Below the pieces are notes generated by a model. That model was not told the origin of the DNA. It saw only the letters and a list, made by a program, of their open reading frames with translations, and made no database searches. Of a DNA stretch of 64,000 nt, positions 50,788 through 51,919 are shown piece after piece. A program made the position numbers and the translations under genes. Each line of letters begins with the position of its first letter. Positions within the stretch are counted from its first letter, which is position 1. Source of the DNA: Nitrospirota bacterium (GTDB lineage: Bacteria > UBA2233); NCBI GenBank assembly GCA_011620345.1, contig WOZJ01000015.1, forward strand, positions 112-64,111. The letters run 5' to 3'.

Positions 50788-51037
50788 ACCTTGCCCTGGT
50801 TTTTGACCTATCAGTTTACCATACACCGAAAGAAGAAACCGGCGCTATCCCTGAAGGGCAAGAACCTAGGCTTTCTTGGGTAGGCTTAAGGAAACAAAAA
50901 AAAGTGATTCTTTTGGCATGGCATGCCAAGACCTTAGTCAGTGCAGCTTCTTCGTCCCTGGCTTACTCTTTGGCGGGTGTATCGAAAAAACAGCAGGTTC
51001 TTCGTACCGAACTAAGGAAGGGGCTTGAGCGTCAGAA

Positions 51038-51063
51038 GGGGACGGCGGACCTGCGCCGTCCCC
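51038..51063 (-). terminator. GC-rich hairpin, probable terminator downstream of the micro-ORFs
   Basis: GGGGACGGCG-N6-CGCCGTCCCC, a perfect 10-bp stem 15 nt after the 40-aa ORF stop. The minus-strand tail is only TTCT, so the U-tract is weak. Confidence 0.6.
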
Positions 51064-51078
51064 TCGGATCGAAAAGGG

Positions 51079-51201
51079 CTAGAAAGGCTGAACCATAGGC
51101 TGCGACGGGCTCTTGCCGCCGGCCGGGCAAGCTTGGCCGGTACCCATGGTAGAAACAATCCCAAGGAAACCCAGGGCTAAGGCTACAAGCGTTTTCTTCA
51201 T
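51079..51201 (-). CDS. 40-aa secreted micro-protein (not in ORF track)
   Basis: MKKTLVALALGFLGIVSTMGTGQACPAGGKSPSQPMVQPF*; AAGGAGA SD; n/h/c signal-peptide layout. Confidence 0.7.
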   Translation of the reverse strand: MKKTLVALALGFLGIVSTMGTGQACPAGGKSPSQPMVQPF

Positions 51202-51301
51202 GGCTCTCTCCTTGAAGGGGGCGTTTAAGGACAATTTATACCTACTTAAGTTCTATCCCTCTACACCCCAACGTGTCAAGAGAGCCAGTATGCCGCTTTT
51301 T

Positions 51302-51445
51302 TTACAAGCCGAAAGGCCCCTGTGGCCCGCCCTTTTTTTGTCCTGGCGGGATACCTTGCCCCGGCGGAATGCCCTGTCCGGGCGGAATGCCTTGGCCTGG
51401 CGGGCCGAAAGCGACGCTAGGACCTTTCTTCGTAAGCTTAAGCAT
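51302..51445 (-). CDS. 47-aa PPGQGI-repeat micro-protein (not in ORF track)
   Basis: MLKLTKKGPSVAFGPPGQGIPPGQGIPPGQGIPPGQKKGGPQGPFGL*; AAGGAGG SD 7 nt before ATG; repeat units differ only at synonymous positions. Confidence 0.8.
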   Translation of the reverse strand: MLKLTKKGPSVAFGPPGQGIPPGQGIPPGQGIPPGQKKGGPQGPFGL

Positions 51446-51484
51446 GGCGTGCCTCCTTTTGTTTTTGGGTGAAACCCATTAAGG

Positions 51485-51919
51485 CTAACTTAACTTCTCA
51501 AGCGCCTTCAAAAAGGACCCATGGTGCTCTTTTTCGTCCGATAAGATGTCTTCAAAAATCTCCTGGATCTTGGAAAGCCCCTCTTTCCCGGCTGTCTCTG
51601 CGATCCGGGGGTAGAGCTCCAAGGCGCCTTCCTCGGCTTTGACATCCAGCTCGATCATTTCTTTGATTGTCTTGCCCACGATGACGGGCGGGTCCGGCTG
51701 TGTGGGTAACTCGCCTCCAAGCTTGCGGAACGCCTCGGCGATCTCCTCGGCATGCTCCATCTCTGCCATGGCAATCTTTCGGAACAGCTTGCGGGCCTCT
51801 GGCCCCTCTTCCTTTGGGGTGGCAATGTGGTGCCACATGTACTGGATAGAGCCCTGAAGCTCGCTTGCCAGGGCTTGATAAACCATGTCCATTAGTTCTT
51901 TCGAGGCTTGTTGCGTCAT
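51485..51919 (-). CDS. Ferritin-like (bacterioferritin/rubrerythrin fold) diiron protein
   Basis: ASEL..SIQY, AEMEHAE (ExxH), KAEEGA..LY and DEKEH (ExxH); ATG 51919 with AAGGGG SD. Confidence 0.88.
   Translation of the reverse strand: MTQQASKELMDMVYQALASELQGSIQYMWHHIATPKEEGPEARKLFRKIAMAEMEHAEEIAEAFRKLGGELPTQPDPPVIVGKTIKEMIELDVKAEEGALELYPRIAETAGKEGLSKIQEIFEDILSDEKEHHGSFLKALEKLS

What the first reader, a model, noticed from the sequence alone, without database searches (positions are those of the whole stretch)
51302..51445. Unannotated 47-aa (PPGQGI)n micro-protein: four PPG ribosome-stall motifs upstream of the efp operon
Seen: a minus-strand ORF with a perfect AAGGAGG SD, 39 nt after the ferritin-like gene, encoding PPGQGI three times plus PPGQ. 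Codons per unit are CCG CCA GGC CAA GGC ATT / CCG CCC GGA CAG GGC ATT / CCG CCG GGG CAA GGT ATC / CCG CCA GGA CAA. Every difference is synonymous on this strand, while the plus-strand reading changes residues (I/M, C/W), which points to selection on this peptide. Established: PPG is one of the strongest EF-P-dependent stalling motifs. Seen: efp lies about 2.6 kb downstream on the same strand, with a strong hairpin (51038-51063) in between. Inference, three alternatives: (a) an EF-P-activity sensor or attenuation peptide; (b) a RiPP-like or structural polyproline substrate or partner of the adjacent diiron protein, since some ferritin-fold diiron enzymes such as MiaE and Coq7 are hydroxylases; (c) a low-complexity scaffold peptide.
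Basis: partly seen in the sequence, partly recalled or inferred. Interest (0 to 1): 0.8.

Follow-up and report, generated by a model that had tools for sequence, protein, structure and literature searches.

The report
Conserved orphan PPG-repeat micro-protein beside mini-bacterioferritin
A 47-residue, lysine-, glycine- and proline-rich protein that gene finders miss is a real gene, kept almost unchanged in one small lineage of anaerobic Nitrospirota and always sitting just behind a mini-bacterioferritin-like gene; it is not a sensor for the nearby efp gene, and its job is still unknown.

Summary
ORF47 (51302-51445, minus strand) has an AAGGAGG Shine-Dalgarno sequence, an ATG start and (PPGQGI)3PPG.

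I found nine alleles. All lie directly downstream of a mini-bacterioferritin-like (mBfr-like) gene.
- Over a 42-codon core, 39 third-codon positions vary, but only 6 first or second positions do.
- pN/pS is 0.03-0.08 at near-saturated pS. The same comparison gives 0.14 for accC and 0.23 for the mBfr-like gene.
- The core is 90-93% identical where EF-P is 80% identical.
- Conservation includes the C-terminal KKGGPQGPFGL tail, and the repeat number never changes.

So the finished peptide is the selected product, not an RNA and not merely a stall site.

The EF-P-sensor idea is not supported. One lineage (L006) keeps ORF47 without aroK-efp downstream. In the window, another ORF, a strong hairpin and aroK's own promoter lie between ORF47 and efp. 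The neighbour looks like a cage-forming ferroxidase rather than a hydroxylase, and no RiPP enzymes are nearby.

No homologue exists outside this lineage in 1.8-5.8 billion proteins.

My best guess, which is inferred, is a basic, disordered partner of the acidic mBfr-like cage whose synthesis depends on EF-P.

A second small ORF (ORF40) follows ORF47, and its ribosome-binding site is masked by a stem supported by covariation.

The parts
51302..51445 (-). ORF47: a 47-aa basic Gly/Pro-rich micro-protein. Layout: variable N-terminus, KKGP-x-I/V-A-x-G, (PPGQGI)3PPG, then Q/H-KKGGPQGPFGL.
   Evidence: Nine alleles; 6 of 42 core residues vary, against 39 of 42 third-codon positions; pN/pS 0.03-0.08.
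51452..51458 (-). Shine-Dalgarno sequence AAGGAGG, 6 nt before the ORF47 ATG.
   Evidence: Also present in relatives: AAGGAG in L007, GGGGGG in L006, AAGGAG(G/A) in L001 and L002.
51338..51403 (-). 18-nt tandem repeat array encoding (PPGQGI)3PPGQ, which contains four PPG motifs.
   Evidence: TRF: period 18, 3.7 copies, 79% matches. The repeat number is identical in all 9 alleles.
51485..51919 (-). Mini-bacterioferritin-like diiron four-helix-bundle gene (144 aa), probably co-transcribed with ORF47.
   Evidence: Best solved relative is 9qq4 (Mper-mBfr, E 1e-16). All six ferroxidase ligands, the haem-binding Met54 and His31 are present. No terminator-like structure in the 39-nt spacer.
51278..51290 (-). 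5' strand of a long-range stem. It begins 14 nt after the ORF47 stop codon.
51198..51210 (-). 3' strand of that stem. It covers the last 3 nt of the ORF40 Shine-Dalgarno sequence, the spacer and the AUG.
   Evidence: 12 pairs; 98% of cells paired in 5 alleles against 52-65% in register-shift controls; 2 compensatory changes.
51079..51201 (-). ORF40: a 40-aa ORF with a signal-peptide or membrane-anchor N-terminus and a conserved tail, CPAGGKSPSQPMVQ. It is an accessory gene, present in some lineages only.
   Evidence: Removed by two different deletions in L007 and L008.
51038..51063 (-). Conserved G+C-rich hairpin after ORF40; likely the end of the transcription unit. No U tract follows it.
   Evidence: The stem is conserved and the loop varies; -25.4 kcal/mol, z -3.4.

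Best explanation
ORF47 is a genuine, translated gene, and its finished 47-residue peptide is the functional product. It is the last or second-to-last cistron of a short operon headed by a mini-bacterioferritin-like gene.

The peptide has five Lys and no Asp or Glu. It has no hydrophobic segment or signal peptide, so it is presumably cytoplasmic, and it is predicted to be extended or disordered. In a polyproline-II conformation the hexapeptide repeat would give three faces: Pro/Gln, Pro/Gly and Gly/Ile.

The most likely mode of action, which is inferred and not shown, is stoichiometric binding in trans to the acidic mBfr-like cage encoded just upstream. It could act as a clamp or collar at subunit contacts or at the negatively charged three-fold pores. 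It could also supply the Lys-rich tail that mini-bacterioferritins lack and Dps proteins carry.

Because it has four PPG motifs in 22 residues, its output should depend steeply on EF-P. That is a property of its synthesis, not evidence that it reports to the efp operon.
For: SHOWN
- The sense frame is under very strong purifying selection. In 9 alleles, variable columns number 4, 2 and 39 at codon positions 1, 2 and 3. pN/pS is 0.03-0.08 at pS 0.54-0.81, against accC 0.14, mBfr 0.23 and aroK 0.36 for the same genome pair.
- The core is 38-39 of 42 identical where EF-P is 80%, AccC 84% and mBfr 71% identical.
- Shine-Dalgarno sequence, start and stop are conserved. The wobble-aligned antisense frame has twice as many variable residues and no conserved start.
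- The C-terminal tail after the last PPG is conserved through multi-step synonymous changes; Leu appears as TTG, CTA, CTT and CTC.
- The repeat number is fixed in all alleles.
- There is no RNA-structure signal inside the ORF; the covariation term is +1.39.
- ORF47 follows the mBfr-like gene in every locus of the clade with >=71% identity, 20-39 nt behind it in four lineages and 110 nt in L007, whatever lies downstream.
- No terminator-like structure separates the two genes.
- Charge is complementary: ORF47 has 5 K/R and 0 D/E, while mBfr has 28 D/E and 17 K/R.
- AF2 gives no secondary structure, pTM 0.15.

SUGGESTIVE
- mBfr proteins of the ORF47 clade alone have lost Gly34 and the Arg61-Glu127 dimer-dimer salt bridge, and have gained one loop residue (residue roles from PMC13168243).
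- That paper reports a negatively charged C-terminal three-fold pore, and lists the function and DNA binding of mBfr as unknown.
Against: - There is no direct evidence of translation. The only RNA found is one 190-nt metatranscriptome contig over the mBfr-like gene.
- The link to mBfr rests on adjacency within one narrow, largely syntenic lineage. GH31, ada and mBfr also stay together, so it is in effect one evolutionary event.
- The clade-specific mBfr substitutions are likewise a single event.
- Nothing tests binding. The peptide could act on a different conserved target.
- Relatives of mBfr at about 50% identity have no such ORF, so mBfr proteins in general do not need it.
Confidence: 0.5

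Rival explanations
1. A conserved micro-protein with a target unrelated to the mBfr-like protein, for example the ribosome, nucleic acid or another conserved machine. On this view its position behind mBfr is only inherited gene order.
For: - Such extreme conservation of a disordered basic peptide, higher than EF-P and AccC, is typical of ligands of very conserved macromolecules.
- The whole GH31-ada-mBfr block is syntenic in this lineage, so adjacency carries little weight.
- L007 has a 110-nt spacer containing a TTGACA, which may be its own promoter.
Against: - The spacing to mBfr is tight, 20-39 nt, with no terminator in four of five lineages.
- The breakpoint in L006 lies after ORF47 and ORF40, not between mBfr and ORF47.
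- Charge is complementary, and the mBfr interface changes are clade-specific.
Confidence: 0.27
2. A cis-acting upstream ORF. Its EF-P-dependent translation would control ORF40 by opening, or failing to open, the stem that masks ORF40's ribosome-binding site (translational coupling).
For: - A 12-bp stem pairs a segment beginning 14 nt after the ORF47 stop with ORF40's Shine-Dalgarno sequence, spacer and AUG.
- It is kept in 5 of 5 alleles, with 2 compensatory changes: 98% of cells paired against 52-65% in slid controls.
- PPG stalls relieved by EF-P can change downstream expression in reporters (PMC5021804).
Against: - ORF40 and the stem were deleted twice independently, in L007 and L008, yet ORF47 stays 90% identical there. 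This cannot be the function that keeps ORF47.
- The conserved C-terminal tail and fixed repeat number are not needed for coupling.
- A terminating ribosome would reach only about 10 nt past the stop, short of the stem.
- It may be a secondary role in lineages that have ORF40.
Confidence: 0.12
3. An EF-P activity sensor or attenuation peptide that regulates the downstream aroK-aroB-aroQ-efp operon.
For: - Four PPG motifs on the same strand, 2.56 kb upstream of efp.
- The linkage is seen in the window, L002, L007, L008 and L255.
- Engineered PPG or polyproline motifs affect Rho-dependent and intrinsic termination in delta-efp E. coli.
Against: - L006 keeps an intact ORF47 with no aroK-efp downstream.
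- In the window, ORF40, a -25 kcal/mol hairpin, a variable 105-nt indel and aroK's own extended -10 lie in between.
- The ORF47-aroK interval is not homologous among lineages.
- Pro-Pro codon pairs drift freely.
- Residues after the last stall site are conserved.
Confidence: 0.04
4. A RiPP precursor, or a proline-rich substrate hydroxylated by the adjacent diiron protein.
For: It is a small ORF next to a diiron four-helix-bundle protein, and there is a weak sub-threshold COQ7 Pfam hit (E 0.004, 17 bits against a cut-off of 23.5).
Against: - The neighbour matches bacterioferritin and mini-bacterioferritin, with ferroxidase ligands and the haem-binding Met.
- No radical-SAM, YcaO, lanthipeptide, P450, protease or exporter genes lie within about 6 kb in any locus.
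- There is no hypervariable core; the whole peptide is invariant.
Confidence: 0.04
5. Not a gene. The conservation would reflect an antisense ORF, a DNA repeat or an RNA element.
For: Gene callers skipped it in L006 and L008 and called another frame in L007. The wobble-aligned antisense frame is open in all alleles.
Against: - 39 of 42 wobble positions vary, so nucleotide-level constraint is excluded.
- The antisense frame has 12 variable residues against 6, and its start and length differ in each lineage.
- There is no covariation support for an RNA structure and no Rfam match.
Confidence: 0.03

Closest known systems
Small accessory proteins encoded next to bacterioferritin genes: Bfd (bacterioferritin-associated ferredoxin; cited in PMC13168243 ref. 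12) and the rubredoxin-2 partner of Desulfovibrio Bfr (the latter from my own knowledge)
   Same: A gene of about 50-70 codons directly adjacent to, and probably co-transcribed with, a haem-type ferritin-family gene. Proposed to act by binding the cage.
   Different: ORF47 has no Cys and, in most alleles, no His. It cannot carry an Fe-S or rubredoxin centre or transfer electrons. It shows no sequence similarity and is predicted to be disordered.
Lys-rich N- or C-terminal tails of Dps and DpsL 12-mers (described in PMC13168243)
   Same: A flexible, lysine-bearing segment associated with a 12-mer ferritin-like cage. Mini-bacterioferritins lack such tails.
   Different: Here it would be a separate polypeptide rather than a tail, with a rigidly conserved Pro/Gly repeat. 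No DNA-binding evidence exists.
EF-P-dependent polyproline elements used for regulation: the CadC PPPIP copy-number control (PMC8129111) and PPG or polyproline motifs that uncouple transcription from translation in reporters (PMC5021804)
   Same: It contains PPG, a motif whose translation stalls without EF-P. Four copies should make output steeply dependent on EF-P.
   Different: There is no conserved attenuator and no conserved target gene. Residues beyond the stall sites are conserved. Pro codon pairs are not conserved. Linkage to efp is broken in one lineage.
Elastomeric beta-turn or PPII repeat proteins: HMW glutenin PGQGQQ, elastin VPGVG, spider-silk GPGQQ (own knowledge; PPGQG occurs in a glutenin paper)
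   Same: A P-G-Q-G-containing short tandem repeat rich in Pro, Gly and Gln, and predicted to be non-globular.
   Different: Only 3.7 repeats, bacterial and cytoplasmic, with Lys-rich flanks. The resemblance is compositional, not homologous.
Collagen-like (Gly-X-Y)n and the (PPG)10 model peptides
   Same: It contains PPG triplets.
   Different: Gly does not occur at every third residue; Ile occupies that position in alternate triplets. A collagen triple helix is therefore excluded.

Membership tests
EF-P-sensing leader or attenuation peptide | Strong EF-P-dependent stall motif in the ORF | tested here: met
   Four PPG motifs. PPG is described as EF-P-relieved in PMC5021804.
EF-P-sensing leader or attenuation peptide | The ORF lies in the leader of the regulated gene, with a conserved terminator/antiterminator or RBS-masking structure that ribosome position controls | tested here: not met
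   For aroK-efp: the intervening DNA is not conserved, aroK has its own promoter, and L006 lacks aroK-efp. For ORF40, an RBS-masking stem exists, but ORF40 is dispensable.
EF-P-sensing leader or attenuation peptide | Selection acts on the stall or tunnel segment only; the finished peptide is dispensable | tested here: not met
   The tail KKGGPQGPFGL after the last PPG is conserved through synonymous change.
EF-P-sensing leader or attenuation peptide | Stalling and downstream expression respond to EF-P in vivo | not testable with these tools
   Needs toeprinting, Ribo-seq or reporters.
Mini-bacterioferritin (the neighbour gene; PMC13168243) | Six canonical ferroxidase ligands | tested here: met
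   E20, E53, H56, E96, E129 and H132, from the alignment to 9qq4; invariant in A1.
Mini-bacterioferritin (the neighbour gene; PMC13168243) | Haem-binding Met52 and His29 | tested here: met
   M54 and H31.
Mini-bacterioferritin (the neighbour gene; PMC13168243) | Gly34 in the A-B loop | tested here: not met
   The aligned residue is K36, or S/P-K elsewhere in the ORF47 clade. The relatives that lack ORF47 have Gly.
Mini-bacterioferritin (the neighbour gene; PMC13168243) | Bare four-helix bundle without N- or C-terminal extensions | tested here: met
   144 aa, aligning end to end with the 139-aa 9qq4 chain.
Mini-bacterioferritin (the neighbour gene; PMC13168243) | 12-mer cage assembly | not tested
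   It would need a multimer prediction or an experiment. The Arg61-Glu127 contact is replaced by Ala and Lys here.
Collagen-like triple helix | Gly at every third residue | tested here: not met
   In G-P-P-G-Q-G-I-P-P, Ile falls on every second Gly position.
RiPP precursor | Cognate modifying enzyme, protease or exporter in the gene cluster | tested here: not met
   The neighbours are a TPP enzyme, a Glt symporter, GH31, adenosine deaminase, mBfr, aroK/B/Q, efp and accB/C.
Bfd or rubredoxin-type ferritin partner | Cys ligands for an Fe-S or Fe centre | tested here: not met
   No Cys in any allele.
Any described protein or RNA family | Significant match to Pfam, NCBIfam, PDB or Rfam | tested here: not met
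   Searches gave none. Searches of 5.8 billion and 1.84 billion proteins found only P0001, which belongs to the same lineage.

The most novel reading that the evidence does not exclude
ORF47 is a new kind of ferritin-cage accessory. It would be a detachable, three-repeat polyproline-II peptide that binds the mBfr-like 12-mer, for example one repeat per subunit around a negatively charged three-fold pore, with its Lys pairs as anchors. In that way it would gate iron traffic or cage assembly. Because of its four PPG motifs, its abundance would be set by EF-P activity, which would tie iron and oxidative-stress handling to translational capacity.
Probability: 0.2. Interest if true: 0.75.

Novelty: categorically new. 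Interest (0 to 1): 0.55.

Why it matters
Mini-bacterioferritins were defined only in 2026, and their physiological role, partners and DNA binding are listed as unknown (PMC13168243). A micro-protein more conserved than EF-P, always encoded right behind one clade of them, is a concrete candidate partner that can be tested with a synthetic peptide.

The case also shows how gene callers miss, or mis-frame, short low-complexity ORFs. The pipelines skipped it in L006 and L008 and called the wrong frame in L007, so protein-database searches under-report such families.

It would also be a natural substrate with four strong EF-P-dependent motifs in 22 residues, which is useful for studying EF-P dependence outside model organisms.

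The label "categorically new" refers to the protein family, which has no detectable relative or described analogue. It does not refer to a demonstrated mechanism.

Tried and rejected
1. Relaxed DNA pattern for any (PPGxGx)2PPG in the metagenome and genome collections. It gave more than 120 hits in each. On screening, all were unrelated low-complexity stretches in G+C-rich genomes.
2. Exact (PPGQGI)2 pattern. It found only UBA2233 among genomes and nothing in the JGI metagenomes, although a JGI contig (L254) does carry the gene. That collection is therefore incomplete for this purpose.
3. Exhaustive phmmer. The only extra hit, P0025, is a 1,555-aa repetitive surface protein and is spurious.
4. 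PDB search with the peptide. It gave only an insignificant nucleoprotein match, E 0.37.
5. AF2 of the peptide alone. No structure was predicted, pTM 0.15.
6. Folding the natural in-frame mBfr-spacer-ORF47 stretch.
7. Read-through fusion of mBfr and ORF47. The two are in frame in the window (two stops between) and in L006 (one stop), but out of frame in L007 and L008. Rejected.
8. RNA structure within the ORF. No covariation support. No Rfam match.
9. RNA-seq evidence. One metatranscriptome contig covers only the mBfr-like gene.
10. Other PPG-dense ORFs in the window. None.
11. Literature search for the motif. Nothing relevant.

Full report
OBSERVATION

The minus-strand ORF at 51302-51445 encodes MLKLTKKGPSVAFGPPGQGIPPGQGIPPGQGIPPGQKKGGPQGPFGL. 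AAGGAGG (51452-51458) lies 6 nt before the ATG, and the ORF starts 39 nt after the stop of a ferritin-like gene (51485-51919). Tandem Repeats Finder reports an 18-nt period with 3.7 copies at 51338-51403. Pfam, NCBIfam, Rfam and PDB give nothing for the ORF.

An ORF of this size is unremarkable on its own in this G+C-rich DNA. The question is whether it is conserved as a protein.

RELATIVES

The exact peptide is on one short ENA contig (L001). A Nitrospirota MAG, UBA2233 (L002; taxonomy), has a 94% identical ferritin-like gene followed by the same ORF.

A protein-database search with the peptide found only one other cluster, P0001. That is misleading, because gene callers miss this ORF. When I fetched contigs that carry more diverged ferritin-like relatives, ORF47 homologues appeared in every locus of the >=71% identity clade:
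- L006 (78% identity), L008 (72%) and L007 (71%);
- L254, L255 and L256.

The pipelines had not called the gene in L006, L008 or L255/L256, and had called an overlapping wrong frame in L007.

Relatives at about 50% identity lie in oxidative-stress clusters and have no such ORF. These clusters include Fur, rubrerythrin, flavodiiron protein, rubredoxin, cytochrome bd, desulfoferrodoxin and VIT1.

An exhaustive phmmer search of 1.84 billion representatives added only a spurious repetitive surface protein. DNA-pattern scans added nothing. ORF47 is therefore an orphan confined to one lineage. DNA runs that hold the locus come from oil-field, hydrocarbon, sediment, sludge and soil metagenomes.

SELECTION

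Across nine alleles (eight distinct DNA sequences), the 42-codon core from KKGP to FGL has 4, 2 and 39 variable columns at codon positions 1, 2 and 3. Only six residues vary, all conservatively: S/G, V/I, F/L/Y, Q/H, Q/H and P/H.

Pairwise pN/pS is 0.03-0.08 at pS 0.54-0.81. For the window-L007 pair the corresponding values are:

| Gene | pN/pS |
|---|---|
| accC | 0.14 |
| mBfr-like gene | 0.23 |
| GH31 | 0.27 |
| ada | 0.33 |
| aroK | 0.36 |

In identity terms, the core is 90-93% identical where EF-P is 80% and AccC 84% identical.

The only other frame that tolerates these changes is the wobble-aligned antisense frame. It has twice as many variable residues, and its start and length differ in each lineage.

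RNAalifold finds no covariation support inside the ORF. With nearly every wobble position varied, nucleotide-level constraint is excluded.

Three further points matter for mechanism:
- The tail after the last PPG (KKGGPQGPFGL) is as conserved as the repeat; the terminal Leu is encoded by TTG, CTA, CTT or CTC.
- The repeat number is the same in all alleles, although the DNA is a tandem repeat.
- Pro-Pro codon pairs drift freely, including CCC-CCC and CCU-CCU. In E. coli, codon-pair choice tunes pause strength (PMC8129111).

Selection is therefore on the complete peptide.

THE NEIGHBOUR GENE

The closest solved relative of the neighbour is 9qq4 (E 1e-16). This is the mini-bacterioferritin of Ca. 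Methanoperedens, a 12-mer cage with coprohaem at dimer interfaces and a bare four-helix bundle. Its function and DNA binding are listed as unknown (PMC13168243).

The window protein keeps all six ferroxidase ligands, the haem-binding Met and His29, and has no extensions. The five proteins of the ORF47 clade differ from ten relatives without ORF47 in four ways:
- Gly34 is replaced.
- Arg61 becomes Ala, Thr or Val.
- Glu127 becomes Lys, which abolishes a dimer-dimer salt bridge described in that paper.
- There is one extra residue in the B-C loop.

The protein is acidic (28 D/E against 17 K/R), whereas ORF47 has five Lys and no acidic residue. AF2 predicts no secondary structure for ORF47.

WHAT LIES DOWNSTREAM

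In the window, L001, L002, L006 and L255/L256, ORF47 is followed by ORF40 (51079-51201 in the window). ORF40 has a hydrophobic N-terminus and a conserved tail, CPAGGKSPSQPMVQ. A conserved G+C hairpin follows it.

The ORF47-ORF40 spacer folds stably (-35.3 kcal/mol, z -3.3). Its outer stem pairs 51278-51290, which begins 14 nt after the ORF47 stop, with 51198-51210, which covers part of ORF40's Shine-Dalgarno sequence, the spacer and the AUG. In five alleles, 98% of cells pair, against 52-65% in register-shifted controls, and there are two compensatory changes. With only five sequences the support is moderate.

A conserved TTGACA block lies in the loop. It may be an internal promoter that would produce an unmasked ORF40 mRNA.

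ORF40 and this stem were removed by two different deletions, in L007 and L008, without any relaxation of ORF47.

aroK-aroB-aroQ-efp-accB-accC follows in the window, L002, L007, L008 and L255. In L006, thioredoxin, SIS and other genes follow instead.

INTERPRETATION

What is shown: ORF47 is a protein-coding gene under very strong purifying selection on its whole length, and it is always located just behind one clade of mBfr-like genes.

What is inferred:
- It is co-transcribed with that gene. The spacer is short and has no terminator, but the only RNA evidence covers the mBfr-like gene alone.
- It acts in trans, most plausibly on the acidic cage.
- Its yield depends on EF-P.

The EF-P-sensor reading fails on synteny (L006), on the lack of any conserved attenuator, and on conservation beyond the stall sites. 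Reporter work shows that PPG can in principle affect downstream transcription (PMC5021804).

A cis role towards ORF40 is possible where ORF40 exists, but it cannot explain why ORF47 is retained.

The RiPP and hydroxylase-substrate readings lack the necessary enzymes and do not fit the neighbour's ferroxidase signature. A collagen-like structure is excluded by the Gly spacing.

VERDICT

The headline interpretation, an efp sensor, is not supported. The "partner of the adjacent diiron protein" alternative remains the best available hypothesis, and it is unproven.

This is a new, narrowly distributed micro-protein family of unknown function. I rate it of moderate interest, mainly as a testable candidate partner for the newly defined mini-bacterioferritins.

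Noticed in passing
window 51079-51201 (-); L002 5719-5841; L006 6717-6839; L255 about 2720-2842: ORF40 is a second unannotated small ORF (MKKTLVALALGFLGIVSTMGTGQACPAGGKSPSQPMVQPF). It has a GGAG Shine-Dalgarno sequence, a signal-peptide-like or membrane-anchor N-terminus and an almost invariant tail, CPA(G/D)GKSPSQPM(V/I)Q. It has no family match. It has been lost by two different deletions, in L007 and L008.
   Followed up: partly
window 51278-51290 paired with 51198-51210 (-): A long-range stem masks ORF40's Shine-Dalgarno sequence, spacer and AUG. It has two compensatory changes among five alleles. A conserved TTGACA block (about 51274-51279) in its loop may be an internal promoter.
   Followed up: yes
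window 50869-50973: A 104-105-nt insertion/deletion polymorphism lies between the hairpin and the aroK promoter. It is present in the window, L001 and L255, and absent in L002 and in one contig of run X6. It contains the palindrome TTGGCATGCCATGCCAA followed by a T-run.
   Followed up: no
window 51485-51919 (-); alignment A1: mBfr-like proteins of the ORF47 clade have lost Gly34 and the Arg61-Glu127 inter-dimer salt bridge (A63 and K130 here). They have also gained one B-C-loop residue, compared with relatives that lack ORF47.
   Followed up: partly
L010 5434-5598: In a 52% identical relative (GCA_964539375.1), the position behind the mBfr-like gene is occupied by a 54-aa Cys-rich ORF (CQIC...CCGK). 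That ORF lies in a cluster with Fur, rubrerythrin, a flavodiiron protein and rubredoxins. It may be a redox partner, which would be analogous in position but not in chemistry.
   Followed up: no
L007 6583-6726; L006 6478-6621; L008 2847-2999: Automatic gene calling skipped ORF47 or chose an overlapping wrong frame. In L007 the called 47-aa product is an artefact that ends in the leftover ORF40 tail, GPSQPMVQAL. Protein databases therefore under-represent this family.
   Followed up: yes
window 51827-51868: Contigs of 2.5-4 kb in runs X1, X3 and X6 match only this 42-nt stretch of the mBfr-like gene (the IQYMWHH region), with 5 mismatches, and then diverge. They are probably a paralogous ferritin-family gene in co-occurring organisms.
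   Followed up: no
window 50813-50821 (-): The extended -10-like TGGTAAACT before aroK is conserved in L001, L002 and L255, and reads TGTTAGACT in L007. This is consistent with an independent aroK promoter.
   Followed up: partly
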